The notes under the pieces were generated by a model. The model was not told the DNA's origin. It was given only the letters and a program-made list of their open reading frames with translations, and made no database searches. From Thermodesulfobacteriota bacterium (lineage in GTDB: Bacteria; Desulfobacterota; Syntrophorhabdia; Syntrophorhabdales; JANXAF01): DNA of 64,000 nucleotides. The DNA lies in the NCBI GenBank assembly GCA_025062045.1, contig JANXAF010000001.1, positions 141,256 through 205,255 on the forward strand, given 5' to 3'. The position numbers were made by a program, and so were the translations under genes. Of this stretch, positions 32,625 through 43,902 are shown piece after piece (the first letter of the stretch is position 1; each line of letters starts with the position of its first letter).

Positions 32625-33707
32625 ATGAAGATTGCTGTCGGACTAAGTGGGGGTTTTGATTCTTCCATAGCAGCTTATCTTTTGGCAAAGAAAGGATACG
32701 AGCTTATCGGTGTAACCATGAGGATATGGGATGGGAAGATAAGTTGCACTACAAAGAAAAACGCGTGTTACGGGCCGGATGAAGAAAAAGACATAGAATT
32801 TGCACAGAAAATAAGCGAAAAACTCTCCATCCCACACTATGTAATCGATTTAAGAGACGAGTACAGAGAGTTCGTCCTTAATTACTTTTTCCTAGAGTAC
32901 AGAAAAGGAAGAACACCAAATCCCTGTGTTGTGTGTAACTCAAAGATAAAATTCGGGTTTTTGATAGAAAAGGTCCGTTCTTTGGGCCTCGATTTCGATT
33001 GCTTTGCTACGGGACACTACGCACGGATTGAGTTCGATCCGGAAAGGAAAAGATACCATTTAAAGAGGGGTGTCGACGAGCAAAAAGACCAATCCTACTT
33101 TCTCTACAGACTTACTCAAGACCAGTTAAAAACGATTCTATTTCCCCTTGGGGATTTTAGGAAAAATGAGCTAAAAATGAAGGCTTTAGATTTTGGACTG
33201 GAAGAACTTGCAAAAAGAAGGGAAAGCCAGGATTTTTTTGCCGACGATTATAGACTTCTCTTTGAGGACTGTGGCGAACCGGGAAACATAGTCGATGTTT
33301 ACGGTAACGTAATAGGCAGACACAAAGGAATATGCCACTACACTGTAGGTCAAAGGAGGTACCTTAATCTCGCTGGTCTAAAAGAGCCCTATTATGTGCT
33401 AAAAATCGATCCCGAAAGGAACGAGATCGTAGCGGGGCCTAAAAGGTATCTTTTTAGCTCTTCTCTTTTAGCAAAAGATCTTAACTGGCTATTACCTCCA
33501 GAAGAAGTAAAAGGGAAAAAAGTTTTCGCCAAAGTTCGGTCAACAGCAAGGCTTGCCGAATGTACTTTCGATTTTGTAGAAGACATGATTGTTGTTAGAT
33601 TTACCCAACCCCAAGAGGGTATAACACCGGGTCAATCTGTTGTCCTTTACGATGGGGAGGTTGTAATCGGTGGGGGTATTATAGAATCGTATCTAAGCTA
33701 TGAATGA
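32625..33707 (+). CDS. mnmA: tRNA 2-thiouridine(34) synthase
   Basis: PP-loop GLSGGFDSS and catalytic PNPCVVCN. Confidence 0.95.
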   Translation: MKIAVGLSGGFDSSIAAYLLAKKGYELIGVTMRIWDGKISCTTKKNACYGPDEEKDIEFAQKISEKLSIPHYVIDLRDEYREFVLNYFFLEYRKGRTPNPCVVCNSKIKFGFLIEKVRSLGLDFDCFATGHYARIEFDPERKRYHLKRGVDEQKDQSYFLYRLTQDQLKTILFPLGDFRKNELKMKALDFGLEELAKRRESQDFFADDYRLLFEDCGEPGNIVDVYGNVIGRHKGICHYTVGQRRYLNLAGLKEPYYVLKIDPERNEIVAGPKRYLFSSSLLAKDLNWLLPPEEVKGKKVFAKVRSTARLAECTFDFVEDMIVVRFTQPQEGITPGQSVVLYDGEVVIGGGIIESYLSYE

Positions 33708-35293
33708 TGGACATCACAAAAACTGATATAATATCAAAAGCTTTGGTCCGCCTAAAGGGCCTTACAAGTTCTGTTGGAACAAAACTCTTCCTTATCCTCG
33801 TTGCTCTTCTTGCGTTTTCTTTCATAGTAGTCCTCTACCATAATGTTCGAACCTACACGAACCATCTACACGAAAACGTTCTCAAAAATGCCATTCAGAT
33901 AAGCAATATAATAAAGAGCGCCTGTTATCACAGCATGCTGAAAAACGACAGAGAAGGATTGCAGAATATAATCATGAGCGTTGGAAAAGAAGAGGGTATC
34001 GATGCAATAAGGATTTACAACCGGGAAGGAATAATATCTTTTTCGAAGGATAAGGGAGAGATCCACCATGTGGCTGACAAAAGGGCAGAACAGTGCTACG
34101 TCTGCCACAGGGAGGAACCGGCAAAGGGTTTGATTCCAACAAAGGATCTCACAAGGATCCTTGTATCTCCCGAGGGATACAGGCAGCTTGGACTTGTGAA
34201 TCCCATCGAAAATAGTCCGGAATGTTACAATGCGGCTTGCCATGCCCACTCAAAGGATCAGCAGAAACTCGGTTTACTTGATGTCAAACTGTCACTAAAA
34301 AAGATAGATGAAGAAATAGTTCAGACCAAAAGGAGAATGGTCATATACTCTATCCTCCTTATACTTTTTACTGCCCTTCTTAAAGGGGCTTTCATCATTC
34401 TTCTTGTCCACAAGCCCATAAAAAAACTCATAAAAGGCGTAAGAGAGGTGGCAAAACTGAATCTGGATTACAAGGTTGATGTGAAATCGAACGATGAGCT
34501 TGGTGAGCTTGCCGCCTCTTTCAACGAGATGACAAAGGAGTTGAAGAATGCCCAAAACCATCTCATCTTTTCTGAGAGGATGGCCTCTTTAGGTAAAATA
34601 TCGGCCTCTGTTGCGCACGAGATAAATAATCCACTTTCAGGAATACTATCCTACGCAAAACTCACTGCAAGGTTTCTCGAAGAGAACGGCAATGATCCTG
34701 AAAAGATAAAAATGGCGATAGAGAATCTCAAATTTATAAGCGAGGAGAGTAAAAGATGCGGGGAGATAGTGAAGAATCTGCTCCTTTTCTGTAAGAAAAC
34801 CTTTGGTACCATAAGAGGAGAACATCTAAGTACTATAATAGAGAACAGCATAAAGCTCGTGGAGCACAGCGCAAAACTCCAAAAGGTTAAATTTGTAAAG
34901 GAGATAGATACGGAAAACGATATAGTGGTTGTCGATACTGGAGCTATAGAACAGGTTTTTGTCGATCTATTCATAAACGCCATAGAGGCTATGCCAAATG
35001 GTGGAGTGATTAAGGTAAGTACAAAAAACGGAAAGGACGAAATATTGATCACTGTGACAGATACCGGATGTGGTATCCCGGAAAATGTTTTACCCCGTAT
35101 ATTTGAACCTTTTTTCACCACTAAAGACCCAAAAAAGAGCACGGGACTTGGCCTTTGTGTAGTGTATAGTATCATTGAAGATCACGGCGGCAAAATAGAG
35201 GTATCGTCAAAAGTAAACGAAGGAACGACATTCACTATAGTCTTGCCCAGACTTTCGAAGAGATTGCCCAATGAGAAAGGGGGGTTAAGATAG
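33704..35293 (+). CDS. sensor histidine kinase with periplasmic domain carrying two c-type heme-binding motifs, HAMP, HisKA, HATPase
   Basis: TM helices near aa 27-45 and 212-235 flank about 165 aa containing CYVCH (CxxCH, nt 34094..34108) and CYNAACH (Cx4CH, nt 34223..34243). H-box SVAHEINNPL, plus N, G1 and G2 boxes. Confidence 0.9.
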   Translation: MMDITKTDIISKALVRLKGLTSSVGTKLFLILVALLAFSFIVVLYHNVRTYTNHLHENVLKNAIQISNIIKSACYHSMLKNDREGLQNIIMSVGKEEGIDAIRIYNREGIISFSKDKGEIHHVADKRAEQCYVCHREEPAKGLIPTKDLTRILVSPEGYRQLGLVNPIENSPECYNAACHAHSKDQQKLGLLDVKLSLKKIDEEIVQTKRRMVIYSILLILFTALLKGAFIILLVHKPIKKLIKGVREVAKLNLDYKVDVKSNDELGELAASFNEMTKELKNAQNHLIFSERMASLGKISASVAHEINNPLSGILSYAKLTARFLEENGNDPEKIKMAIENLKFISEESKRCGEIVKNLLLFCKKTFGTIRGEHLSTIIENSIKLVEHSAKLQKVKFVKEIDTENDIVVVDTGAIEQVFVDLFINAIEAMPNGGVIKVSTKNGKDEILITVTDTGCGIPENVLPRIFEPFFTTKDPKKSTGLGLCVVYSIIEDHGGKIEVSSKVNEGTTFTIVLPRLSKRLPNEKGGLR

Positions 35294-36637
35294 ATGAAGC
35301 CAAAAGATGTAAGCATCCTTATTGTTGATGACGAACCTTCCATCAGGAACTCTCTTGCGGGCTGGTTCAAAATGGATGGATACAAGACAGAAGTCGCTGA
35401 GGACGCGTATGAAGCTTTAAAAAAACTTCAAGAGAACAATTTCGATATTGCCCTCCTCGACATAAAGATGCCGGAGATGGACGGGATTGAGCTTCAAAGA
35501 AGGATAAAGGAGATAGACAAAAACATAATCACGATAATAATTACTGCATACGCGACAGTAGAGACAGCAATTCAGGCCATGAAAGATGGTGCATTCGACT
35601 ATATCACAAAGCCCATCGATCCTGATGAACTCTCGAGACTCATAAAAAAGGCCATAGAACAGAGGAGACTCATTGCCGAAAATATCATGCTCAGAGGAAA
35701 GATCGAGGAATTACAAAGCCTAGACGAAATAATAGGAGAAAGCCCAGCGATTAAAAAAGTGATGGAGCTTATAAATACAGTTGCGGAGACGGATTCAACG
35801 GTAATGATAAGAGGAGAAAGTGGCACTGGCAAAGAACTCGTAGCAAGAGCAATACATGCTAAAAGCAAAAGGAGATACTTCCCGATTGTCACGATAAACT
35901 GCGGGGCTTACCCGGAGGGACTCTTGGAGAGTGAACTTTTTGGCCATGAAAAAGGTGCTTTTACCGGTGCTCTTTATCAGAGGAAAGGAAAACTCGAGAT
36001 GGCAAATAAAGGTACACTTTTTCTGGATGAAGTCGGAAACATAAGCTTAAAGATGCAGATGGACCTTTTGCGCGTCCTCGAGACGAAGAAGTTCACAAGG
36101 CTTGGCGGCGACAAGGTTATAGAAGCAGATTTTAGGGTTATTTCGGCGACAAACCGTGATCTCGAACAGGCAGTTAGAGAGGGTAGCTTCAGGGAGGACC
36201 TCTATTACAGACTTAACGTTTTTACAATATTCCTTCCTCCTCTGAGGGAGAGAAAGAGCGATATTCCTCTCCTTACATACCATTTCATAAAGAAGTTTTC
36301 GCTCTCAATGAACAAAGACGTAAAAGAGATATCTAAGGAGGCCATGAATCTCCTTATGGACTACGATTGGCCCGGAAATGTAAGGGAGCTAAGAAATGTG
36401 ATCGAGAGGGCAATGGTCAACGTAAAAGGCAGTAGAATTGAAGTCGATGATCTTTACTTTAGCATATCTTCTCCCTATCCCAAGCCTGAAGGAGAGACTC
36501 TCGAAGACGTGGAAAAAGCCCACATAAAGAAGATTCTCAACAAAACGGGATGGAACATCACAAAGGCCGCCGAGATCTTAAACATAGATCGGGTGACCCT
36601 TTATAACAAGATCGAGAAGTACAAACTCAGAAAATAA
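35294..36637 (+). CDS. sigma-54-dependent response regulator (NtrC family: REC-AAA+-Fis HTH)
   Basis: REC (LLDIKMPEMDG), Walker A GESGTGKE, GAFTGA sigma-54 contact loop and a C-terminal Fis-type HTH. Confidence 0.95.
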   Translation: MKPKDVSILIVDDEPSIRNSLAGWFKMDGYKTEVAEDAYEALKKLQENNFDIALLDIKMPEMDGIELQRRIKEIDKNIITIIITAYATVETAIQAMKDGAFDYITKPIDPDELSRLIKKAIEQRRLIAENIMLRGKIEELQSLDEIIGESPAIKKVMELINTVAETDSTVMIRGESGTGKELVARAIHAKSKRRYFPIVTINCGAYPEGLLESELFGHEKGAFTGALYQRKGKLEMANKGTLFLDEVGNISLKMQMDLLRVLETKKFTRLGGDKVIEADFRVISATNRDLEQAVREGSFREDLYYRLNVFTIFLPPLRERKSDIPLLTYHFIKKFSLSMNKDVKEISKEAMNLLMDYDWPGNVRELRNVIERAMVNVKGSRIEVDDLYFSISSPYPKPEGETLEDVEKAHIKKILNKTGWNITKAAEILNIDRVTLYNKIEKYKLRK

Positions 36638-36646
36638 CTACTTTAA

Positions 36647-37174
36647 ATGCCATCCATATACATAGTGCCGGCGTGGCTTGAGGAGAACCATGATCTCGAA
36701 TTTTTGCGACTCCGCATCTCAGAAGTCTTCAGAAAAAAAACGGTCATATACGAGTCAAAAAAGATAGACTTCCACTCCATCTACAACCCCTCAAGGAAAC
36801 AGTACAACTCGTCCCAGTTTCTAATCCAGCTTCTCAATAACCACCCTAAGGACGCATTAAGAATACTGGGAGTCACAGATGTGGATCTATTCATACCAAT
36901 CCTCACGTTTGTCTTCGGAGAAGCCCAGCTTAACGGGATAGCGGGGGTAGTCTCTGTCCACAGACTGAATAACAAGTTCTACGGGTTACCTGAAAATGAG
37001 GAGCTTTTAAGAAAGAGACTTATAAAAGAGGCCATTCATGAGCTTGGACACACTTATGGCCTCGTCCACTGTCTCACTCCTGGGTGTGTGATGAATTCTT
37101 CCACCTATGTGGAAGACATAGATGAAAAATCTGAGTTTTTCTGTTCTTACTGCTCTTCCGTGATCAGGGGTTAA
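36647..37174 (+). CDS. amzA: archaemetzincin-type zinc metalloprotease
   Basis: HELGHTYGLVHCLTPGCVM...CSYC matches the archaemetzincin signature HExxHxxGx3Cx4CxM...CxxC (x16 here versus x17 in the published pattern). Confidence 0.85.
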   Translation: MPSIYIVPAWLEENHDLEFLRLRISEVFRKKTVIYESKKIDFHSIYNPSRKQYNSSQFLIQLLNNHPKDALRILGVTDVDLFIPILTFVFGEAQLNGIAGVVSVHRLNNKFYGLPENEELLRKRLIKEAIHELGHTYGLVHCLTPGCVMNSSTYVEDIDEKSEFFCSYCSSVIRG

Positions 37175-37863
37175 AGGAAGGTTTCTATCAGTTTCAAGTA
37201 ATCTTTCTTTGAGAGTTCCCTAAGTAGCTCCACAAACCTCTTTGAGCCACCGTCCTGCATCGTTGGTCCGACTCTTTCCTTCTGGCTTAATTGAAGTAGA
37301 AAGTTATAAAGCCTCCTTTCATCCCTCTTAAGCCAAAGTAGAGCTTCTTTTCCGGAGAGGAGCTTCTTTATGTCCTTTTCGAAGTTGTCGGGTCTCATCT
37401 TCACTAGAAAACCTTCGTTTAGAGGATCGGAAAGTAGAAGTTCCGGCTTTTTCTTCAAAGAACCATTGACAGATATTACGACACCTGAAACAGGCGAGGG
37501 AAGTGGCAGTATACCCCTTCCCTCAACTATGTGGCAAAACCTTTCACCTTGGACAAACCTATCGCCAGGATTGGGAAAAACAATCGATCTTACGCTCGAT
37601 AAAAAGGACGAAAGGAAGCTATCTATCCCTACTGTGACCTTAGATGGGTTTTCCACTCGGACCCAGAGGTGGTTTGGATGGTAAAAGTTGAAGAATTCTA
37701 TCTTAAAAAAGGGAGCCTCTTCTTTTTCCAGATCTTCGGCCCCTCCACGCATAGCAATATCGAATGGACAGGACGTACAATCGTATTCCCTGTCGCATAG
37801 CTTATAAAGTACGAGGCCCGCTGTCATCCAGACACATCTTTCGTCCACGGCTCTAATCCCCAT
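37171..37863 (-). CDS. GcvH-fold protein with N-terminal 4-Cys segment, no lipoyl-lysine
   Basis: C10-x12-C23-x5-C29-x2-C32, then a GcvH-like core (VGIDSF...SPVSGVVISVN...DPLNEGFLVKM). By hand alignment, Arg occupies the lipoyl-Lys position. ATG abuts the upstream TAG. Confidence 0.65.
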   Translation of the reverse strand: MGIRAVDERCVWMTAGLVLYKLCDREYDCTSCPFDIAMRGGAEDLEKEEAPFFKIEFFNFYHPNHLWVRVENPSKVTVGIDSFLSSFLSSVRSIVFPNPGDRFVQGERFCHIVEGRGILPLPSPVSGVVISVNGSLKKKPELLLSDPLNEGFLVKMRPDNFEKDIKKLLSGKEALLWLKRDERRLYNFLLQLSQKERVGPTMQDGGSKRFVELLRELSKKDYLKLIETFL

Positions 37864-38562
37864 CTACACGTCCTTTGTCATGAAATATTCCTTTACCATC
37901 TCATCCCAGGATTCCGGATTCAAGCTCTTTGCCATTCCAGAGATTGGCAAACCACCATCCTGCAAGAGGTAACCGAGGTTGTAGTTCATTCTGGAAAATA
38001 AACTCTCTTTTAAAGCATCTACCCATCTTATTGCGAGCCGTCCGTTAAGGAGATTTTTTAAATTGGACTTCAAGTTCGGAGAGTAAACCTTAAGTAGCCA
38101 ACCATCGCCGTATGGGTCTTCCGAAAGCTTTTTCGGATTCTTTATCACCTTTTCGTTTATCTCTATTATCTCTCCGTCCAAAGGAGAAAGCATCTTTATC
38201 TCCTTTCCGTCAACAAATAGACTCCAGCCAACTTCCCCTTGGATTATCTCTTCTCCCCTTTTAGGTACCTTTATCGCCTCCACGTTTCCTACAAGTTTTT
38301 GGGCAAAGTCGTCTATTCCAACCCTTGCGATTCTTTCGCCCTCAGGAAAGACCCAAGTGTGTCCCTGGTGGTAGTAAAGGTAATCTGGGATCCTAAAGAG
38401 CCTGCTCATAATCGTCCTTGGCGATTGACTTGGACCTGTGGAGGCTCGGCGGGGTCTTAAGGTCATATAAGAGAAGACCACAAAGGCCGCAAGAAAGAGT
38501 ATCACTAAGATGTACTCGATCCCTTTTGTGGCGAATATGTCGATATAGGTGAATCCTTCCAT
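37864..38562 (-). CDS. N-terminally membrane-anchored GcvH-fold protein
   Basis: TM helix YILVILFLAAFVVFSYMTL followed by RPRR, which predicts a cytoplasmic domain. GcvH-like core VGIDDFAQ...SPLDGEIIEIN...DPYGDGWLLKV. Confidence 0.65.
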   Translation of the reverse strand: MEGFTYIDIFATKGIEYILVILFLAAFVVFSYMTLRPRRASTGPSQSPRTIMSRLFRIPDYLYYHQGHTWVFPEGERIARVGIDDFAQKLVGNVEAIKVPKRGEEIIQGEVGWSLFVDGKEIKMLSPLDGEIIEINEKVIKNPKKLSEDPYGDGWLLKVYSPNLKSNLKNLLNGRLAIRWVDALKESLFSRMNYNLGYLLQDGGLPISGMAKSLNPESWDEMVKEYFMTKDV

Positions 38563-38574
38563 TTTTAACCCTCC

Positions 38575-39927
38575 TTAATAGTCTCTGTATCTTTGGCCAC
38601 CATTTGCCATTGTAAAACCTAGTTCAGCTTGATACTCCTCCTCTTCGAGCTCTTTTTCCTTCGCCCATTCAGGAACTTCCCCATAGACCGGCATCCTATT
38701 GACGACCCATCTGAAGATCCAAAGCTGAGTAAAAACAATCGTTAAAGTTATAACTATCTCTTGCCACGTAGGTATGTACTTCTCGCTAAGCGGGAGGTAC
38801 CACTTGTAAGCGATCATGGAGTAGTTGATCCTGTTTATTATGACGCCGAGCATCGTTACTAAAGCCGCAACTCTAATGAGATTTATCCTTCTGTCCCTTT
38901 GCCCGTAGTAAAACATAAGGCAAGGAATGAGCACGAACCCTAAAACTTCCACAAGATACCAGATCCCCATGGGGCTTGAGATGTATACCCAGCTCTTTCC
39001 GTGTATGAAGATCAAAACCTTAAGGAAGAAGTACACAAAAAGTGTTATGGCACATCCTCTCGCAAGCCCAATAACTATATCATCGTAGTTTTTGAGATAC
39101 TCCTCAGACATCCTATGTCTGAAAACTTTCTTACTTATGGTCCCCTCAACAATCACACAGGAGAGTCCGGCAAATATACTGGAGACGAAAAAGAGAACCG
39201 GAATGAATTCCGTGTACCAGAGGGGGTGTAACTTATTCTTCGCCATCATAAATAGAGCTCCGAGCCCGGACTGGTGAAGGGTTGAGAGGGCTATTCCAAA
39301 GACGCACGCACCGAGCGTCATAGAGCTTAGAATCTTTCTTAGTCTTTTTAGCTCTAGCCACTCGGCAATGGCAGGAGAAAACTCTATAAACTGTGCGATC
39401 ATGTAAAGGAGAAAGTGCCATGCAACAAGAAAAAGTACTGAATTTACACCGAACTCATTTCCGATAATAGGGTTTAGAATGTTCCATTTCCTTCCTAAGT
39501 CCAAAAATATGGCGGATGCATAAAACACATAGGCCAAAAAACCGTTTAATATGGTCGCTCTCAAAATCGGATGGTATTTTTCGGCGTTAAGGATATAAAC
39601 GACGAATGCTAGGACATAGGCACCACCGGCGAATGGCACTCCAACCATGACGTTAAAACCTATAAATATGCCCCACGGAAAGTCTTGAGAAACGTTACTT
39701 CCGTGGGAGAGTCCGTAAAACATGTGGGTTATGATGAGATAGGTCCCCAAAAGGATAATAGGAAGAGTAATGACGTTAAATGCGGTAAGGACCTTTCCTT
39801 TTGGCTTTAATTCTTTAATGAGAAGTACAAGAAAACCGATGAAGTAAAAGGTTAAGAGAACTAGTTTCGATAACGCTAAAGTGAGACCATTTCTCGCAAT
39901 AGTTATGGATTCAAACTCTTTTCTCAT
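38575..39927 (-). CDS. NrfD/PsrC/HybB-family polytopic membrane (quinone-interacting) subunit
   Basis: 450 aa with about 10 TM helices and an acidic cytoplasmic C-terminal tail. ATGA overlap with the upstream Fe-S gene. Confidence 0.8.
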   Translation of the reverse strand: MRKEFESITIARNGLTLALSKLVLLTFYFIGFLVLLIKELKPKGKVLTAFNVITLPIILLGTYLIITHMFYGLSHGSNVSQDFPWGIFIGFNVMVGVPFAGGAYVLAFVVYILNAEKYHPILRATILNGFLAYVFYASAIFLDLGRKWNILNPIIGNEFGVNSVLFLVAWHFLLYMIAQFIEFSPAIAEWLELKRLRKILSSMTLGACVFGIALSTLHQSGLGALFMMAKNKLHPLWYTEFIPVLFFVSSIFAGLSCVIVEGTISKKVFRHRMSEEYLKNYDDIVIGLARGCAITLFVYFFLKVLIFIHGKSWVYISSPMGIWYLVEVLGFVLIPCLMFYYGQRDRRINLIRVAALVTMLGVIINRINYSMIAYKWYLPLSEKYIPTWQEIVITLTIVFTQLWIFRWVVNRMPVYGEVPEWAKEKELEEEEYQAELGFTMANGGQRYRDY

Positions 39928-40790
39928 CTTTCAATCTCCTTTTTACGTTCCTTAGTTAGGTAATGGATACCTGTGAGAAAAGCAGGCCAAAGGATTAGAA
40001 TCACAGGCACAGAGTAGAGAAAGCCTGTCGTGTATTCCGGATAAGGCGTGTAACCCAGATCCATCTGGAAGTTGAGCTTTTCAAATGGATAAGATGAGAT
40101 GTAGAGAAAGGCTGTGCCTCCGACCTCGTTTTCCCCGTAAATGTAAGGCACGTACAAACCGGGGGTTTGATAGATCCTCTTTTTTGCCTCATTTAAAATA
40201 TCCCTTCTTGTACCGAACGTTAAAGCCTCCTTTGGGCAGACTTCGACACAGGCTGGGACTTTCCCAGAACTTATCCTTCCGTAGCACATATCACACTTCA
40301 TGATCCTACCGAAGGCCTCGTCGTATTCGAATTTCGGTATGTCGAAAGGGCATGAAACCATGCAGTACCTGCAACCCATGCAGTTCTCATCCCAGGTTAC
40401 AGGTCCCTCCTTTCGCTTTTTCATTGCCTTTACAAGACAGGCTGCAACACATCCTGGTTGGTTGCAGTGCATACATTGAATTTTTACGTAGATCTCGCCT
40501 TTTTCTGTTAGGAACCTATTGACAACTGTGAGGGTTTTTTCATCCGGCTTTCTTATCTTTGTGAAGACACTTTTGTCCTCTATGTTTGGAATTGGAAGGG
40601 AGTGGGATTCCGCACAGCTCGCCTCACACGTCCTACAACCTATGCACCTTGTCGTATCGACAAGGACACCGAAAAACTCCTTAGTTTTCGCTTTTATCTC
40701 AGAAGAAAAGACGGTTTTGCTACAAATAGCCGAAGATGCGAAAAGACCAAGTCCCGAGAGGGCCACCTTAAGAAACTCTCGTCTTTTCAT
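39924..40790 (-). CDS. Tat-exported 4x[4Fe-4S] ferredoxin subunit with C-terminal TM anchor (HybA/NrfC/DsrO-like)
   Basis: Twin-arginine signal MKRREFLK. Four Cys clusters (CIGCRTCEASC, CMHCNQPGCVAAC, CMGCRYCMVSCP, CDMC...CVEVCP). C-terminal helix VPVILILWPAFLTGI. Confidence 0.9.
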   Translation of the reverse strand: MKRREFLKVALSGLGLFASSAICSKTVFSSEIKAKTKEFFGVLVDTTRCIGCRTCEASCAESHSLPIPNIEDKSVFTKIRKPDEKTLTVVNRFLTEKGEIYVKIQCMHCNQPGCVAACLVKAMKKRKEGPVTWDENCMGCRYCMVSCPFDIPKFEYDEAFGRIMKCDMCYGRISSGKVPACVEVCPKEALTFGTRRDILNEAKKRIYQTPGLYVPYIYGENEVGGTAFLYISSYPFEKLNFQMDLGYTPYPEYTTGFLYSVPVILILWPAFLTGIHYLTKERKKEIER

Positions 40791-41022
40791 CCTCTGCCTC
40801 CTCTTTTTCTTGAACTTTCTCTCCCCCGTCTGCTAGTGTGAAACCGAGCTCAGGAGTGTAAAACAGCGACTTTTCTCTAAGTTTTACTTCCATGGCCTTT
40901 TTTGTCGGATATAGACCCATAAAGAATAGATGCCATGCGAGATACCCGAAAATGAGCCCAAGGATCAATCCACCCCCCAAAAGAAGGACTGGGTAAATTT
41001 CTATGAATCTTCCGGCTTCCAT
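40768..41022 (-). CDS. 84-aa single-pass membrane protein with acidic tail
   Basis: GGAGGTGA SD 5 nt upstream of the ATG. One TM helix followed by basic residues. Carries the ELGFTLADGG motif shared with the NrfD-like C-terminus. 23-nt overlap with the next gene. Confidence 0.6.
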   Translation of the reverse strand: MEAGRFIEIYPVLLLGGGLILGLIFGYLAWHLFFMGLYPTKKAMEVKLREKSLFYTPELGFTLADGGEKVQEKEEAEDEKTRVS

Positions 41023-41052
41023 AAACTCACCTCCTTTCTAACTTATAAATTG

Positions 41053-41067
41053 GCAATATGCGTGCCA
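41053..41067 (-). promoter_or_regulatory. sigma-54 (-24/-12) promoter
   Basis: Minus strand reads TGGCAC-GCATA-TTGC (TGGCAC = 41067..41062, TTGC = 41056..41053), an exact match to TGGCAC-N5-TTGC. It lies 31 nt upstream of the ATG at 41022. Confidence 0.7.
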
Positions 41068-41159: not shown

Positions 41160-41202
41160 ATCGTTGAATTTTTCAACGATGGGCTATTGAATTTTTCAAC
41201 GA
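41160..41202. promoter_or_regulatory. tandem palindromic enhancer-like (UAS) sites
   Basis: A perfect 21-bp palindrome ATCGTTGAA-TTT-TTCAACGAT (41160..41180). An exact 16-nt repeat of its core, TTGAATTTTTCAACGA, occurs at 41187..41202. Centres are 23 bp apart and about 104 and 127 bp upstream of the -24 element. Confidence 0.55.
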
Positions 41203-41414
41203 CTCGTGGATAGGTCCAATTCGTATCCTTCCGACTCAATAGCTCGTTTTAATGCCTCTAAATCTATTTCACCCTCGTACGTTACTTTTAGTGTTTCGGT
41301 CTCTACATTTGCCTCACACGCGATCACATTTTTTATCCGTTTTACGGCAGATTCGATCCTTCTTTCGCAATGACTACATCCCATGCCTTTTACTTGCAGG
41401 GTAATCGTTTTCAT
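41196..41414 (-). CDS. copZ: copper chaperone CopZ (HMA domain)
   Basis: 72 aa with the GMGCSHC metal-binding loop. Confidence 0.9.
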   Translation of the reverse strand: MKTITLQVKGMGCSHCERRIESAVKRIKNVIACEANVETETLKVTYEGEIDLEALKRAIESEGYELDLSTSR

Positions 41415-43867
41415 CTTCTTACTCCCAGATTGAGTGCTTTTATTCTCAAAGAATTGAGTACCACAAAAAGCGAGCTCAATGTCATCGCAAAGGAAGCATA
41501 AAGAGGTTTAAGTAGGATCTGAAACGTTGGATAGAATAGACCTGATGCGCACGGTATAAGAAGGACATTATAGAAAAAAGCCCAAAAAAGGTTTTCTTTT
41601 ACTATTTTATTCGTCTTTCTGGAGAGCTTTAAAAATCTCACTATGCCCCTTAAGTCCTCGTTTATGAGGATTACGTCAGACGTTTGAGCAGCGATATCCG
41701 TTCCCTTACCCATCGCGAATCCCAAATCAGAAAGGCTAAGGGCAGGAGCATCATTTATACCATCTCCCACCATCGCAACCTTATATCCTCTCTTTTTGAG
41801 ATCTTCAACTTTTAAAGACTTCTCATGGGGAAGCATATCTCCAAAGACTTCATCTATATTTGCTCTTTTAGCAAAGATTTTAGCCACATTCATGCTATCT
41901 CCAGTGAGAAGACCGATTCTTATCCCCATCTTTTTAAGTTCCGAAATAGTCTCAATCGATTCCTCTCTTAGCGTGTCCCCTATGGCTATAAAACCGGCAA
42001 GAATCCCATCAATTGCTACACAAAGACAAGTACTTCCGTCACCTGTTAGCCTTTCATAAACCTCTCTGTGAGGTTCTATTTCCACGCCCATTCTTTTTGC
42101 AAAAGATAGACTGCCAACTAGTACCTTTTTTGAAGTAACTTCTCCTATCAACCCTTCACCAGGAACGTAACTGAATGACTCCGGTTCAGAAAGAAAAAGA
42201 TTTCTTGCCATGGCGTATCTCACAATGGCACGTCCTAAAGGATGTTCAGAGTTCTTCTCAAGGGACCCTGCAATGGCAACGATCTCTTCCTCTTCAAACC
42301 CATTTACAGGAAAGACCGTCTTTACTTCCACTTTACCGTAAGTTAGAGTTCCCGTCTTGTCGATGAGTACGTAATTTATCTTTTTTGCCGAATCAAAAGC
42401 TTCCCCGTTTCTTACTAGGATTCCATACTCTGCCGCCTTTGAACTGGCCACAAAGATCGCAATCGGAGTTGCGAGACCCAAAGCGCAAGGACAAGCAACG
42501 ATGAGTACCGAAACGAAAATCATAAGCGAAAAAGAAGCCGGATATCCCGAAGTAAGCCAGACTAGAAAAGAAAAAAAGGCAATAAAAAAAACGGTGGGCA
42601 CAAAAATACTTGCTATCTTATCAGCCAGGGCTTGGACAGGTGCTTTTCGGGCTTGAGCCCTTTTTACCATCTCCACAATTTGGGAAAGAAGCGTATCCTT
42701 GCCGATTCTTTGCACCTTTAACTTGAATGCTCCTAAAAGGTTGAGACTCGAAGCGTAAACCCAATCCCCAGTCTTCTTCTCTTTAGGTATGGCTTCTCCT
42801 GTAATCGAAGACTCATCTAGTGTACCATACCCGTCTATTATCAGCCCATCTACAGGGATCCTCTCTCCTGGCCTCACAAGTAGTACGTCTTCTTCTTTTA
42901 TCTCCTTTAAAGGGACCTCTTTTATCTTTCCGTCTCTTATAACGGTTGCTTTTTTGGGTAGTAGTGAGGCCAGTCTTCTTATTGCCTCGTACGCTCTTTT
43001 TTTTGCCTTAAGTTCAAGAAGTCTTCCAAAGAGTACAAGCGTTATTATTACGGCACATGTCTCATAGTAAACATCGAGTGGTGGTGAACCTTTTTTTATA
43101 TATGGAAAAAAAGTATTGAAGGAACTGTATAGGTAAGCTGAACCACTACCCACCGAGATGAGCGCGTTCATATCGAATGAGAGATGCTTTGCGGAGCGCA
43201 AAAATGCGAAGAGAAATCCGCTTCCGCCGTAAAAAAAGATGGGCGTTGTGAGAAAAAAAAGGGCAAGGTTTATGCTCTGTCTGTCAAAGCTCATAAAAAA
43301 GAAGTGAAGAAACATATCCGAAAGGACAAAGAAAGTAAGAATAGCTGAAAGAACGAGTCTTTTTTTTAGTCGTTTCTTTTCTTTTTCTTTTTTTACTTCC
43401 TCGAATGATTCTACATCCTCATCCTCGATATGAAGAATTGAGAGTCCAAGATCGGTCAAAATCTTTTTCACATCTTCGAGAGAGACAATTGTCGGCACAA
43501 ACTCTACGGTTATTTCCTCTGCTAAGGGATTGACATGGACATACGTAATTCCGATCTTACTTTTAAGCCTTTTATCTATGATATCAAAAGCCGGGATCAT
43601 CGATAGTCCCTGAACAGGTATCACCGCTTTGTTTGTTTCAACCTCATAACCTAAATCTTTCACGGTTTTTATTATCTTTTCGAGCAACTCTCGAGAAAAT
43701 TCTTTGGCCTCTACGGTTGCCCTTTCCAAAACGAGATTCAACGAAACTCTTTCTAACTCCTTTATCTTCGAAAGGCTATCCTCTATTCTTTTCACACATG
43801 CAGAACAGGTCATACCGGATATTGGGATTATGAGTATTTGTGTCCCTTCTTGAGCCACCCGGTTCAT
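41411..43867 (-). CDS. copA: copper-translocating P1B-type ATPase
   Basis: HMA GMTCSAC, a second HMA-like repeat lacking the Cys pair (GLSMIPAF), TM CPC, DKTGTLT and GDGINDAP. ATG at 43867 chosen, because the TTG at 43912 would read through the hcp terminator. Confidence 0.9.
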   Translation of the reverse strand: MNRVAQEGTQILIIPISGMTCSACVKRIEDSLSKIKELERVSLNLVLERATVEAKEFSRELLEKIIKTVKDLGYEVETNKAVIPVQGLSMIPAFDIIDKRLKSKIGITYVHVNPLAEEITVEFVPTIVSLEDVKKILTDLGLSILHIEDEDVESFEEVKKEKEKKRLKKRLVLSAILTFFVLSDMFLHFFFMSFDRQSINLALFFLTTPIFFYGGSGFLFAFLRSAKHLSFDMNALISVGSGSAYLYSSFNTFFPYIKKGSPPLDVYYETCAVIITLVLFGRLLELKAKKRAYEAIRRLASLLPKKATVIRDGKIKEVPLKEIKEEDVLLVRPGERIPVDGLIIDGYGTLDESSITGEAIPKEKKTGDWVYASSLNLLGAFKLKVQRIGKDTLLSQIVEMVKRAQARKAPVQALADKIASIFVPTVFFIAFFSFLVWLTSGYPASFSLMIFVSVLIVACPCALGLATPIAIFVASSKAAEYGILVRNGEAFDSAKKINYVLIDKTGTLTYGKVEVKTVFPVNGFEEEEIVAIAGSLEKNSEHPLGRAIVRYAMARNLFLSEPESFSYVPGEGLIGEVTSKKVLVGSLSFAKRMGVEIEPHREVYERLTGDGSTCLCVAIDGILAGFIAIGDTLREESIETISELKKMGIRIGLLTGDSMNVAKIFAKRANIDEVFGDMLPHEKSLKVEDLKKRGYKVAMVGDGINDAPALSLSDLGFAMGKGTDIAAQTSDVILINEDLRGIVRFLKLSRKTNKIVKENLFWAFFYNVLLIPCASGLFYPTFQILLKPLYASFAMTLSSLFVVLNSLRIKALNLGVRR

Positions 43868-43897
43868 AAAAAAAGGGACGGAGGGTAGCCCTCCGTC
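43868..43897 (-). terminator. rho-independent terminator after hcp
   Basis: Minus strand reads GACGGAGGG-cta-CCCTCCGTC followed by CCTTTTTTT. The 9-bp GC-rich stem occupies 43877..43897 and the T7 run 43868..43874. The T-run leads directly into the copA ATG. Confidence 0.7.
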
Positions 43898-43902
43898 TAA
43901 AA

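What the first reader, a model, noticed from the sequence alone, without database searches (positions are those of the whole stretch)
37246..40851. A shared [LV]-G-[FYP]-[TL]-[LM]-[AQ]-[DN]-G-G peptide recurs near the C-terminus of four of the five operon proteins
Seen directly by hand translation:
- The 84-aa protein has PELGFTLADGGE (nt 40822..40851).
- The NrfD-like protein ends ...AELGFTMANGGQRYRDY (motif nt 38596..38625).
- The anchored GcvH-like protein has NLGYLLQDGGL (37951..37977).
- The Cys-rich GcvH-like protein has RVGPTMQDGGS (37246..37272).
- The Fe-S subunit has only a partial DLGYTP.
- In the two membrane proteins, the motif sits in predicted cytoplasmic, acidic tails.
- In all four, it is followed by a short tail of 6-28 residues.

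Inference: four unrelated folds in one operon sharing a 9-residue motif points to a common docking, recognition or modification element. One option is strand addition onto the GcvH-like domains. A more speculative option is a processing site exposing a C-terminal Gly-Gly, given the archaemetzincin protease gene next door. I have not seen this motif described.
Basis: seen in the sequence. Interest (0 to 1): 0.7.

Follow-up and report, generated by a model that had tools for sequence, protein, structure and literature searches.

The report
Shared DGG peptide in respiratory-complex subunits
A nine-residue peptide (h-G-x-T-M/L-A/Q-D-G-G) really does recur in four proteins of one operon and is conserved across many bacterial phyla as the hallmark of an undescribed cytoplasmic add-on to quinone-linked membrane electron-transfer complexes. 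It is most likely a common recognition handle, but its binding partner has not been identified.

Summary
The motif occurs exactly four times in the six-frame translation of the 64-kb window, all in this operon, and never in shuffled sequence.

It is conserved in orthologous operons from Syntrophales, Deferrimicrobiaceae, Calditrichia, Bacteroidota, Gemmatimonadota, Planctomycetia and soil or peat metagenomes. It is nearly confined to this system.

Two carriers are paralogous GcvH-like proteins. The other two are unstructured tails: a single-pass membrane peptide and the C-terminus of the NrfD/HmcC-like subunit.

AlphaFold gives pLDDT below 50 for the motif in both models, although it is among the best-conserved stretches. 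Similarity between carriers is limited to 18 columns. This is the signature of a short linear motif.

The module comprises GcvH-like proteins, small motif peptides, a haem-sensor kinase, a sigma-54 regulator and an archaemetzincin protease. It accompanies both HmcBC-like and QrcABCD-like complexes.

My best reading is a cytoplasmic docking or assembly peptide (0.42). The main rival is an archaemetzincin recognition or cleavage site (0.28). A ubiquitin-like exposed Gly-Gly is unlikely, because no carrier ends within five residues of GG.

No partner was demonstrated. No description was found in the libraries or literature searched.

The parts
40768..41022 (-). 84-aa single-pass membrane peptide. 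It has an N-terminal TM helix followed by a basic stretch, so the C-terminus is cytoplasmic. Motif LGFTLADGG lies at nt 40822-40848, followed by a 17-residue K/E-rich tail.
   Evidence: ORF and translation. No Pfam or NCBIfam family. A 61%-identical homologue keeps FYTPELGFTLADGGE unchanged. 63 distinct small TM proteins with the motif were found in genome and metagenome loci.
39924..40790 (-). Periplasmic four-cluster Fe-S subunit (HmcB/HybA-like) with a Tat signal and a C-terminal TM anchor. It has no motif.
   Evidence: NCBIfam HmcB 335 bits (cut-off 420) and HybA 229 bits; Pfam Fer4_11. 0 of 80 orthologues carry the motif.
38575..39927 (-). NrfD-family membrane subunit (HmcC/HybB-like). 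Its acidic cytoplasmic C-terminal tail carries LGFTMANGG (nt 38596-38622), six residues before the stop.
   Evidence: NCBIfam HmcC 390 bits (cut-off 550); Pfam NrfD. Tail residues 427-450 have pLDDT<50. The tail with motif occurs in 10 of the 120 closest homologues and in 15 of 85 ORFs in the loci. 10-TMH NrfD-like subunits have their termini on the N-side (PMC8076601).
37864..38562 (-). Membrane-anchored GcvH-like protein. It has an HmcD-like N-terminal TM helix, a GcvH fold and a C-terminal helix-loop-helix extension. The loop is the motif LGYLLQDGG (nt 37951-37977).
   Evidence: Pfam GCV_H 79.6 bits. AF2: domain pLDDT>90, residues 194-203 <50. Foldseek to solved GcvH structures, target-normalised TM 0.85-0.92. 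G197, D202, G203, G204, G209 and A211 are invariant in 108 homologues. The anchor aligns to a PF28260 (DVU_0533) protein, hhalign 93%.
37171..37863 (-). Soluble Cys-rich GcvH-like protein, with N-terminal C-x13-C-x5-C-x2-C. Motif VGPTMQDGG lies at nt 37246-37272, 24 residues before the C-terminus.
   Evidence: Pfam GCV_H 71.3 bits. 29 of 50 ORFs of this class match the stricter pattern, mostly V/LGPTMQDGG, and 31 match the looser one.
41052..41067 (-). Sigma-54-type promoter TGGCACGCATATTGCC, about 30 nt upstream of the first gene of the operon.
   Evidence: It is one of two one-mismatch matches in the window. The strict consensus lies upstream of the first operon gene in 14 of 67 related loci, out of 23 matches in 926 kb.
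36647..37174 (+). Archaemetzincin (peptidase M54), cytoplasmic, with the catalytic motif intact. It is convergent with the operon and overlaps its last gene by 4 nt.
   Evidence: NCBIfam archmetzin 165 bits (cut-off 145). HELGHTYGLVHC...C..C is in the translation. Syntenic in 23 of 27 loci with at least 3.5 kb flanks. 51 of 57 Amz-class ORFs have the full consensus; four others keep the HExxH...H residues and two are spurious.
35294..36637 (+). Sigma-54-dependent response regulator (receiver + AAA+ + HTH), the likely activator of the operon.
   Evidence: Translation. Pfam domains of orthologues. Synteny.
33704..35293 (+). Sensor histidine kinase whose periplasmic domain carries c-type haem motifs (CYVCH, CYNAACH).
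   Evidence: Translation. 37 of 37 long orthologues have CxxCH and 36 of 37 have at least two haem motifs.

Best explanation
The peptide h-G-x-[TV]-[ML]-[AQ]-D-G-G-x-x-[IVL] is a short linear recognition motif. It sits on flexible, cytoplasm-facing segments of the subunits of an uncharacterised accessory module of NrfD-type (HmcBC-like and QrcABCD-like) quinone-interacting membrane complexes.

**Proposed mechanism**
1. Each cytoplasm-exposed subunit presents one copy. The carriers are the single-pass membrane peptides, the tail of the NrfD subunit in some lineages, and every GcvH-like protein.
2. The copy is disordered on its own.
3. It becomes ordered, probably as a strand-turn-strand around the invariant D-G-G, when it binds one common site.
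4. This holds the soluble Cys-rich GcvH-like protein, and possibly the archaemetzincin, at the cytoplasmic face of the complex. In short, it is a docking or assembly handle.

**Shown**
- Presence of the motif.
- Its conservation.
- Its near-exclusive association with this system.
- Predicted disorder.
- Restriction of similarity to the motif itself.

**Inferred**
- Cytoplasmic location.
- The binding function.
- The fold on binding.
- The partner.

My ranking of the partner, as a direct reader of the motif whether or not it cleaves it: archaemetzincin about 0.3, a GcvH-like domain or motif-motif pairing about 0.25, the N-side face of NrfD/Fe-S about 0.15, something else about 0.3.
For: **Real and non-random.** Four matches, none elsewhere in the window, none in shuffles.

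**Conserved**
- G, D, G, G are invariant in 108 homologues of the anchored GcvH-like protein at 48-74% identity.
- A 61%-identical small protein has an identical motif.
- Class consensus sequences come from 126 anchored-type GcvH-like, 31 Cys-rich GcvH-like, 28 small and 14 NrfD-tail sequences.

**Specific**
- Of 7393 ORFs in 86 loci, the motif occurs only in GcvH-like proteins, small TM proteins and NrfD tails, plus one chance ORF.
- Of 80 metagenome loci encoding G-x-T-M-A-D-G-G, 43 are small TM proteins with the motif 5-45 residues (median 13-14) from the C-terminus and 1 is an NrfD tail.
- Wherever flank exists, these are next to GcvH-like, Fe-S or NrfD genes.

**Linear-motif behaviour**
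- pLDDT<50 at the motif in both AF2 models, against >90 in the GcvH domain.
- hhalign between small-protein tails and GcvH-like extensions gives 95.6%, E 1.2e-8, but over only 18 columns.
- The small proteins have at least three different TM-helix types and share only the motif.

**Same side of the membrane**
- Basic residues follow the TM helices.
- 10-TMH NrfD-like termini are on the N-side (PMC8076601).

**Portable module.** The same module accompanies HmcBC-like and Qrc-like complexes.
Against: - No binding partner was demonstrated.
- Neither AF2 model docked the motif in cis, onto the GcvH domain or onto the NrfD subunit. The NrfD model is only of moderate quality (mean pLDDT 68).
- Motif copies outnumber GcvH-like domains (4 against 2 in the window), which is awkward for a simple one-to-one docking.
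- In one operon variant the motif is degenerate or lost in the Cys-rich and first GcvH-like proteins. Not every copy is therefore essential.
- Part of the conservation evidence for the anchored GcvH-like protein in L007-L086 is circular, because one seed of the locus search was DGG[VLI]PVxG[IM]A.
- The profile search of 1.84 billion proteins had little power: 4 hits at E<=1e-3.
Confidence: 0.42

Rival explanations
1. The motif is the recognition and cleavage site of the co-inherited archaemetzincin. The cytoplasmic protease, encoded with the haem-sensor kinase and sigma-54 regulator, clips the flexible tails or loops of the complex's cytoplasmic subunits. This could serve maturation, as hydrogenase endopeptidases trim a C-terminal extension, or regulated inactivation.
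For: - The archaemetzincin gene is syntenic in 23 of 27 loci with enough flank. This holds across phyla, in several gene orders, and beside both Hmc-like and Qrc-like versions.
- Catalytic residues are kept in all true orthologues.
- The protein has no signal peptide, so it is on the same side as the motif.
- Archaemetzincins have no known physiological substrate and an occluded cleft thought to need a trigger (PMC3427221).
- The motif is exposed and disordered, as protease sites are.
- Its 9-12 conserved residues, with a central Met or Leu, would fit an extended peptide in a metzincin cleft with a hydrophobic P1' residue. This last point is inference from general metzincin knowledge.
Against: - The protease is encoded with the regulators, not with the structural genes, so its substrate could be a regulator.
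- In GcvH-like proteins the 18-53 residues after GG (15 in one case) are conserved and modelled as packed helices. This is not what a discarded propeptide looks like.
- Three loci with full flanks keep intact motifs but have no archaemetzincin within about 3.5 to 7 kb (L050, L053, L083).
- No cleavage data exist.
Confidence: 0.28
2. The motif is a small-ligand, metal or post-translational-modification site centred on the invariant Asp, for example a loop that binds a cofactor or is chemically modified, rather than a protein-protein contact.
For: - Only D-G-G and the first G are invariant across all classes.
- D-G and N-G are chemically reactive dipeptides (general knowledge).
- The loop is exposed.
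- The GcvH fold is a carrier-protein fold.
Against: - There is no conserved Cys, His or Lys in the motif.
- Met and Thr are not kept in the anchored GcvH-like class.
- No modifying enzyme other than the protease is conserved in the neighbourhood.
- The motif also works as a bare tail on membrane peptides with no fold around it.
Confidence: 0.1
3. Ubiquitin-like chemistry. Processing exposes a C-terminal Gly-Gly that is then activated or conjugated.
For: - An invariant G-G is followed by a short tail in the small proteins and NrfD tails.
- A protease gene lies next door.
Against: - None of 223 distinct carriers ends at GG or within four residues of it. The minimum is 5.
- A conserved hydrophobic residue sits at GG+3.
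- There is no beta-grasp fold. The carriers are a TM peptide, an NrfD tail and GcvH folds.
- No ThiF/MoeB/E1-like gene appears among the called genes of the loci examined.
- The segment after GG is conserved in GcvH-like proteins.
Confidence: 0.03
4. There is no common function. The recurrence is a by-product of paralogy between the two GcvH-like proteins, plus an accidental fusion or duplication that copied the small protein's tail onto the NrfD subunit.
For: - Two carriers are paralogues.
- The NrfD tail is lineage-restricted, at 15 of 85 ORFs.
- Within a lineage the NrfD tail resembles the small protein: F-type in the window's lineage, L-type in Syntrophales.
Against: - The motif is the best-conserved part of otherwise divergent sequences.
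- The DNA copies are diverged at synonymous positions.
- The motif persists on at least three unrelated TM scaffolds and across many phyla.
- Similarity stops at the motif edges.
- Neutral leftovers would not behave like this.
Confidence: 0.05

Closest known systems
Hmc complex (HmcABCDEF) of Desulfovibrio, and the HybA-HybB module of E. coli hydrogenase 2
   Same: - A Tat-exported four-cluster Fe-S subunit with a C-terminal anchor, plus a 10-helix NrfD-family subunit. The best NCBIfam matches are HmcB, HmcC, HybA and HybB.
- The TM anchor of the anchored GcvH-like protein is HmcD-like (PF28260 'DVU_0533').
   Different: - Scores are below the equivalog cut-offs: 335 against 420, and 390 against 550.
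- The operon has no HmcA cytochrome, no HmcE/HmcF and no hydrogenase.
- Instead there are GcvH-like cytoplasmic proteins and a motif-bearing membrane peptide. Neither is part of Hmc or Hyb as I know them (own knowledge), and the 49-aa HmcD-family protein examined has no DGG.
QrcABCD menaquinone reductase / alternative complex III type
   Same: A soil or peat variant of the same module sits on genes that score as QrcB, QrcC and QrcD, plus a multihaem cytochrome c. QrcD scores 563.6 against a cut-off of 570.
   Different: - The window's own complex is the HmcBC type, not Qrc.
- The GcvH-like proteins, DGG peptides, archaemetzincin and sigma-54 system are additions not mentioned in the review of NrfD-like complexes (PMC8076601).
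Glycine-cleavage H protein and lipoate-binding GcvH-like proteins (for example LbpA of sulfur-oxidiser sHdr systems, or GcvH-L of Firmicutes)
   Same: The GcvH fold: Pfam GCV_H, and Foldseek target-normalised TM 0.85-0.92 to solved H proteins.
   Different: - The lipoyl-lysine position is occupied by Gly or Ser in the anchored protein, whose Lys is one position later. The Cys-rich protein has no Lys there.
- Scores are below the GcvH cut-offs.
- There are no gcvT, gcvP or lipoate-ligase neighbours.
- There is an extra C-terminal helix-loop-helix carrying the DGG motif, plus TM or Cys-rich N-termini.
Motif plus dedicated-protease pairs: [NiFe]-hydrogenase C-terminal endopeptidases (HybD/HycI), and sorting signals such as GlyGly-CTERM/rhombosortase or PEP-CTERM/exosortase
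   Same: A short conserved peptide near the C-terminus of several proteins co-occurs in the genome with one dedicated protease gene.
   Different: - The protease here is an M54 archaemetzincin.
- The motif is not followed by a TM helix and basic cluster. The TM helix is N-terminal to it, and the tail is hydrophilic.
- In GcvH-like proteins the motif is internal.
- Cleavage is unproven.
Short linear motifs (SLiMs) / docking peptides
   Same: It is short, lies in predicted-disordered segments, is more conserved than its flanks, and is present on non-homologous carriers.
   Different: No partner domain has been identified. Such motifs are rarely described for bacterial respiratory complexes (own knowledge).

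Membership tests
Short linear (docking/recognition) motif | Short (under about 12 residues) and located in an intrinsically flexible segment | tested here: met
   9-12 conserved positions. pLDDT<50 at residues 194-203 of the anchored GcvH-like protein and 427-450 of the NrfD-like protein.
Short linear (docking/recognition) motif | More conserved than its flanks, and present on otherwise non-homologous carriers | tested here: met
   Invariant G/D/G/G in 108 homologues. hhalign similarity between small-protein tails and GcvH-like extensions covers only 18 columns. There are at least three TM scaffold types.
Short linear (docking/recognition) motif | Binds a defined partner domain | not testable with these tools
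   No multimer prediction or experiment was available. The two monomer models show no cis docking.
Glycine cleavage H protein (GcvH) | GcvH fold | tested here: met
   Pfam GCV_H 79.6 and 71.3 bits. Foldseek E about 1e-12 to 1e-13, target-normalised TM 0.85-0.92 to solved H proteins.
Glycine cleavage H protein (GcvH) | Lipoyl-lysine at the hairpin tip (E-S-V-K-A) | tested here: not met
   In the HMMER alignment to 1onl, the lipoyl Lys column is Ser in the family profile and Gly in the window protein. The family Lys (K120) is one position later. The Cys-rich protein has Arg/Gly there and no Lys.
Glycine cleavage H protein (GcvH) | Reaches the curated family score and lies with gcvT/gcvP | tested here: not met
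   NCBIfam 83.8 and 70.5 bits against a cut-off of 117. The neighbours are Fe-S/NrfD genes, not gcvT/P.
Hmc complex (HmcB/HmcC equivalogs) | Scores at or above the NCBIfam equivalog cut-offs, with HmcA, E and F present | tested here: not met
   335 against 420 and 390 against 550. No cytochrome, NarI-like or CCG-domain gene is in the operon.
HmcD family (PF28260, DVU_0533) | N-terminal TM helix homologous to the small Hmc subunit | tested here: inconclusive
   PF28260 is precomputed for many homologues but not for the window protein itself. hhalign of a 49-aa PF28260 protein to the family alignment gives 93%, E 3.4e-7 over 33 columns. The model itself is not in the local Pfam copy.
Archaemetzincin (peptidase M54) | HEXXHXXGXXHCX4CXMX17CXXC and the curated family score | tested here: met
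   NCBIfam archmetzin 165.1 bits against a cut-off of 145. The motif is present in the translation and in 51 of 57 Amz-class ORFs.
Ubiquitin-like / ThiS-MoaD type Gly-Gly carriers | Beta-grasp fold, C-terminal or exposable GG, and an E1-like partner | tested here: not met
   The carriers are a TM peptide, an NrfD tail and GcvH folds. No carrier ends within four residues of GG. No E1-like gene appears among the called genes of the loci examined.
C-terminal sorting signals (GlyGly-CTERM, PEP-CTERM and similar) | Signature motif followed by a TM helix and a basic cluster at the extreme C-terminus | tested here: not met
   The TM helix precedes the motif. The post-motif tail is 5-45 hydrophilic K/E-rich residues.

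The most novel reading that the evidence does not exclude
The DGG peptide is the physiological recognition and cleavage site of bacterial archaemetzincin.

In this reading, a periplasmic haem-sensor kinase and a sigma-54 regulator switch on an NrfD-type complex. Its cytoplasmic GcvH-like subunits and tether peptides are then matured or shut off by a dedicated metzincin that reads one shared peptide.

This would give the first substrates for a protease family conserved from archaea to humans. It would also be a new kind of post-translational control of a quinone-interacting respiratory complex.
Probability: 0.25. Interest if true: 0.8.

Novelty: new variant of a known kind. Interest (0 to 1): 0.6.

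Why it matters
- **A testable handle on an unstudied system.** NrfD-type complexes (Hmc, Qrc, ACIII, Hyb, Psr, Dsr) are central to anaerobic energy metabolism. Their cytoplasmic partners, and how they are controlled, are poorly known. Here a conserved add-on is defined by one short peptide that can be synthesised, mutated and used as bait. The add-on comprises GcvH-like proteins without the canonical lipoyl-lysine, tiny membrane peptides, a haem-sensing kinase, a sigma-54 regulator and an archaemetzincin. Relatives of its anchored GcvH-like protein were found in 429 species-level genomes.
- **A lead on archaemetzincins.** It gives the first concrete candidate partners or substrates for these proteases, whose biological role is unknown.
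- **Annotation.** The motif makes very small membrane-protein genes (51-145 aa) recognisable. No Pfam or NCBIfam family matched the one tested here.

Tried and rejected
- **Homologues of the 84-aa protein.** Only 2 were found, too few for a family analysis. Loci were used instead.
- **Profile of the four window motif segments against 1.84 billion proteins.** Only 4 hits at E<=1e-3. Three were small TM proteins and one was a spurious LQLGFTLQDGQ repeat protein without GG. The profile carries too little information to survey other families.
- **AF2 of the anchored GcvH-like protein and of the NrfD-like protein with its tail.** The aim was to see cis docking. The motif stayed unplaced in both, so neither a GcvH nor an NrfD receptor could be supported or excluded.
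- **Foldseek and PDB sequence searches.** Only canonical GcvH proteins were found, with nothing for the C-terminal extension.
- **AFDB50 fold search.** The library was unavailable.
- **Literature.** No paper links GcvH-like proteins with NrfD/Hmc/Qrc complexes or archaemetzincin with such operons. The glycine-cleavage hit in D. desulfuricans is the canonical system. The Thi4 paper mentions archaemetzincin only as a structural neighbour of DUF6775.
- **Small proteins as GcvH-less derivatives of TM-anchored GcvH-like proteins.** The pairwise alignments are suggestive (the TM start and the motif align) but not significant, so this is not claimed.
- **The second conserved NrfD tail type...IRKEVPQWKVSAM.** I rejected it as a peptide motif. 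It overlaps the Shine-Dalgarno sequence and the start (MEGF...) of the next gene in another frame.
- **The 608-aa 'archaemetzincin fusion' in L065.** It is an ORF-extension artefact of high-GC sequence.

Full report
**1.

The minus strand between 37171 and 41022 carries five tightly packed genes:
- an 84-aa single-pass membrane peptide;
- a Tat-exported four-cluster Fe-S protein;
- a 450-aa NrfD-family membrane protein;
- a membrane-anchored GcvH-like protein (232 aa);
- a Cys-rich soluble GcvH-like protein (230 aa).

A six-frame regular-expression scan of the whole 64-kb window finds [LV]G[FYP][TL][LM][AQ][DN]GG exactly four times. The sites are 40822-40848, 38596-38622, 37951-37977 and 37246-37272. 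The much looser G.[TL][LMIV].[DN]GG finds the same four and nothing else. One hundred shuffles gave 0 strict matches and a mean of 0.03 loose matches.

The four DNA copies share only 18-29 of 51 bases. The similarity is maintained at the protein level.

The 'partial DLGYTP' of the Fe-S subunit exists but is not an instance:
- It has no DGG.
- It lies on the exported part of the protein.
- None of 80 orthologues has the motif.

**2. What the genes are**

- *Fe-S protein.* Its best match is HmcB (335 bits, cut-off 420), followed by HybA.
- *Membrane protein.* Its best matches are HmcC (390 bits, cut-off 550) and HybB. Both are relatives, not equivalogs.
- *The last two proteins.* They have a GcvH fold. 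Pfam gives 79.6 and 71.3 bits. Foldseek to solved H proteins gives target-normalised TM 0.85-0.92. They score below the GcvH cut-offs.
- *Lipoyl-lysine.* The column is Gly in the window's anchored protein and Ser in its family profile. The family's conserved Lys sits one residue later. The Cys-rich protein has no Lys there.
- *Anchor.* The anchored protein's N-terminal helix resembles the small Hmc subunit family PF28260 'DVU_0533'. This rests on precomputed hits in homologues, the family name and hhalign at 93%, E 3.4e-7. That DVU0533 is HmcD is my own knowledge of the D. vulgaris hmc operon.

Convergent with the operon are three further genes:
- a histidine kinase with periplasmic c-haem motifs;
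- a sigma-54 response regulator;
- an archaemetzincin with an intact HEXXHXXGXXHCX4CXMX17CXXC.

A sigma-54 promoter, TGGCACGCATATTGCC, sits about 30 nt upstream of the first gene.

The organism is an uncultured Desulfobacterota/Thermodesulfobacteriota MAG.

**3. Conservation**

*Small protein.* It has only two relatives in the 5.8-billion-protein collection. The one that is 61% identical keeps FYTPELGFTLADGGE unchanged.

*Anchored GcvH-like protein.* It has 961 relatives. In 108 of them (48-74% identity) G197, D202, G203, G204, G209 and A211 are invariant.

*Orthologous operons.* Contigs of distant relatives and 80 genome loci (429 species genomes encode a relative) show the same operon. I called all ORFs of at least 35 aa in 86 loci (7393 ORFs) and classified them by BLASTP against the window proteins. 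Presence of the motif by class:

| Class | With motif |
|---|---|
| Anchored-type GcvH-like | 98 of 154 |
| Cys-rich GcvH-like | 29 of 50 |
| Small-protein homologues | 22 of 22 |
| Further small TM ORFs, unclassified | 7 |
| NrfD subunits (always a C-terminal tail) | 15 of 85 |
| Fe-S subunits | 0 of 80 |
| Regulators | 0 of 73 |
| Kinases | 0 of 63 |
| Archaemetzincins | 0 of 58 |
| Chance ORFs elsewhere | 1 |

With G....[DN]GG, most GcvH-like proteins of these operons have it, 15-53 residues before the end.

*Consensus.* Across classes it is h-G-x-[TV]-[ML]-[AQ]-D-G-G-x-x-[IVL].

*Caveat.* One seed of the locus search was DGG[VLI]PVxG[IM]A. The presence of the motif in the anchored protein of L007-L086 is therefore partly circular. 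The motifs in the other proteins of those loci, and the word-based protein search, are independent of that seed.

**4. Specificity**

A scan of the metagenome collection for DNA encoding G-x-T-M-A-D-G-G returned 80 readable loci. They break down as follows:
- 43 hits are small single-pass membrane proteins of 51-145 aa. The motif lies 5-45 residues (median 13-14) from the end, often as [HD]xHxFxxPxLG[LV]TMADGGE followed by a K/E-rich tail.
- 1 is an NrfD tail.
- A few more are probably small proteins.
- About 28 look like chance matches in unrelated frames or proteins.

Wherever flank is available, the small gene lies next to GcvH-like, Fe-S or NrfD genes.

A profile of the four window segments searched against 1.84 billion proteins gave only 4 hits at E<=1e-3. 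Three were small TM proteins and one was a spurious repeat. That search has little power.

**5.

- Two carriers are paralogues.
- The small-protein tail and the NrfD tail are very alike within a lineage: ELGFT in the window's lineage and QLGLTMADGG in Syntrophales.
- The NrfD tail is lineage-restricted, at 10 of the 120 closest homologues.
- It is still not one homologous domain. hhalign between small-protein tails and GcvH-like C-terminal extensions is significant (95.6%, E 1.2e-8) but covers only 18 columns.
- The small proteins use at least three different TM helices.

**6. Structure and topology**

*Anchored GcvH-like protein* (AF2, 108-sequence alignment, mean pLDDT 78.7):
- The GcvH domain is modelled at pLDDT>90.
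- The flanking helices 174-191, 210-214 and 219-227 fall in blocks of pLDDT 75-90.
- Residues 194-203, the motif, are below 50.

*NrfD-like protein* (mean pLDDT 68.3): the tail 427-450 stays at about 36.

The motif is thus one of the most conserved and least placeable parts of both proteins. This is typical of a peptide that folds on a partner. No cis docking onto the GcvH domain or the NrfD subunit was predicted.

*Topology* is inferred from three points:
- Basic residues follow the TM helices of the small and anchored proteins.
- 10-helix NrfD-like subunits have both termini on the N-side (PMC8076601).
- The GcvH-like proteins have no signal peptides.

All four copies should therefore face the cytoplasm, as does the archaemetzincin.

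**7. The neighbourhood is a module**

*Synteny.* Of 27 loci with at least 3.5 kb on both sides, 23 have the archaemetzincin, 23 the sigma-54 regulator and 22 the kinase. Gene order varies: HK-RR-Amz downstream, convergent or co-directional, or HK-Amz-RR upstream.

*Regulatory and catalytic features.*
- All 37 long kinases have CxxCH.
- The strict sigma-54 consensus lies upstream of the first gene in 14 of 67 loci, out of only 23 matches in 926 kb.
- All true archaemetzincin orthologues keep the catalytic residues.

*Operon variants*:
- small-B-C-Ha-Hc (the window and Syntrophales);
- Ha'-B-C-Ha-Hc;
- H-Ha'-B-C-Ha (Deferrimicrobiaceae).

Here B is the Fe-S subunit, C the NrfD subunit, Ha an anchored GcvH-like protein and Hc the Cys-rich one.

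*A soil or peat variant* has the small peptide and GcvH-like proteins around a multihaem cytochrome c and QrcB-, QrcC- and QrcD-like genes. QrcD scores 563.6 against a cut-off of 570. The DGG/GcvH-like module therefore accompanies two kinds of NrfD complex.

In the second variant, the motif is often degenerate in Hc and Ha'.

**8. Mechanism**

Shown:
- a conserved, system-specific, flexible peptide;
- present on every subunit with a substantial cytoplasm-exposed part.

Inferred:
- that it is read by one common partner.

*Best reading: a docking or assembly handle (0.42).* The small proteins are nothing but a membrane helix plus the motif. That makes sense as tethers for a soluble component such as the Cys-rich GcvH-like protein or the protease.

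*Main rival: the archaemetzincin recognises and possibly cuts the motif (0.28).* The tight synteny, the intact active site, the absence of known substrates (PMC3427221) and the exposed nature of the motif speak for it. Three points speak against it:
- The protease is encoded with the regulators.
- The post-motif helices are conserved in the GcvH-like proteins.
- Three full-flank loci lack a nearby protease gene.

*A ubiquitin-like exposed Gly-Gly is unlikely (0.03).* No carrier ends within four residues of GG. A conserved hydrophobic residue sits at GG+3. There is no beta-grasp fold and no E1-like neighbour.

*Other readings.* A ligand or modification site (0.1) and pure paralogy or chance (0.05) are less consistent with the data.

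**9. Novelty**

- The small protein has no Pfam or NCBIfam family.
- No Pfam family credibly covers the GcvH-like C-terminal extension; the only hit there is a weak, sub-threshold Mre11_C match.
- The review of NrfD-like complexes lists no GcvH-containing complex.
- Literature searches found nothing that links these components.

I rate it as a new variant of a known kind: a new accessory module, and a new linear motif, on known NrfD-type complexes. Its function remains to be shown.

Noticed in passing
window 41052-41067 (- strand): Sigma-54-type promoter TGGCACGCATATTGCC about 30 nt upstream of the 84-aa gene. The strict consensus is also found upstream of the first operon gene in 14 of 67 related loci (23 matches in 926 kb overall).
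   Followed up: partly
window 33704-35293 (+): The histidine kinase has c-type haem-binding motifs (CYVCH, CYNAACH) in its periplasmic domain. 37 of 37 long orthologues have CxxCH. It looks like a periplasmic redox or haem sensor controlling the operon.
   Followed up: partly
HmcC-like homologues P0134-P0242; loci such as L034 5739-7022: Most 430-aa NrfD homologues end in a conserved ...IRKEVPQWKVSAM. This stretch overlaps the Shine-Dalgarno sequence and the start (MEGF...) of the next gene in another frame (CAA TGG AAG GTT TC / A ATG GAA GGT TTC). Its conservation is therefore probably due to overlapping coding, not to a peptide motif.
   Followed up: partly
L149 3321-7635; also L147, L087, L104: Soil or peat variant. 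The same small DGG peptide and GcvH-like proteins flank a multihaem cytochrome c plus QrcB-, QrcC- and QrcD-like genes. In L149 the RR, archaemetzincin and HK follow.
   Followed up: yes
L002 8710-9690: A hemerythrin-GcvH-like fusion (326 aa) with the same C-terminal DGG extension, in a Syntrophales operon. Other loci (L024, L047, L104) have GcvH-like proteins with one or two N-terminal CPFL...C...C Cys-rich modules that match no Pfam family.
   Followed up: partly
window 38575-39927 (-), N-terminal about 40 residues: The window's NrfD-like protein has an extra N-terminal hydrophobic helix (LALSKLVLLTFYFIGFLVLLI) that the 430-aa homologues lack. This would put its N-terminus in the periplasm.
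   Followed up: no
window 41196-45537 (-): Directly upstream of the operon lie a CopZ-like HMA protein (41196-41414), a copper-type P-type ATPase (41411-43912) and a hybrid-cluster protein (43903-45537). The HMA gene is also next to the small-protein gene in the related contig L001.
   Followed up: no
P0133: A 384-aa NrfD-like protein with the same LGFTMADGG tail is labelled 'Candidatus Bathyarchaeia archaeon' in NCBI. It is 76% identical to the window protein, so this may be a binning error or a transfer.
   Followed up: no
L003 107-3833 (-): Next to the DGG operon sits a second, classical Hmc/Nhc-like set (multihaem cytochrome, Fe-S, NrfD and a 49-aa PF28260 protein) without any DGG motif. 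DsrE2, TusA, NarI-like and CCG-domain genes lie downstream.
   Followed up: no
window 37171-37174: The stop regions of the archaemetzincin gene (+) and the Cys-rich GcvH-like gene (-) overlap by 4 nt. The 84-aa gene overlaps the start of the Fe-S gene by 23 nt.
   Followed up: no
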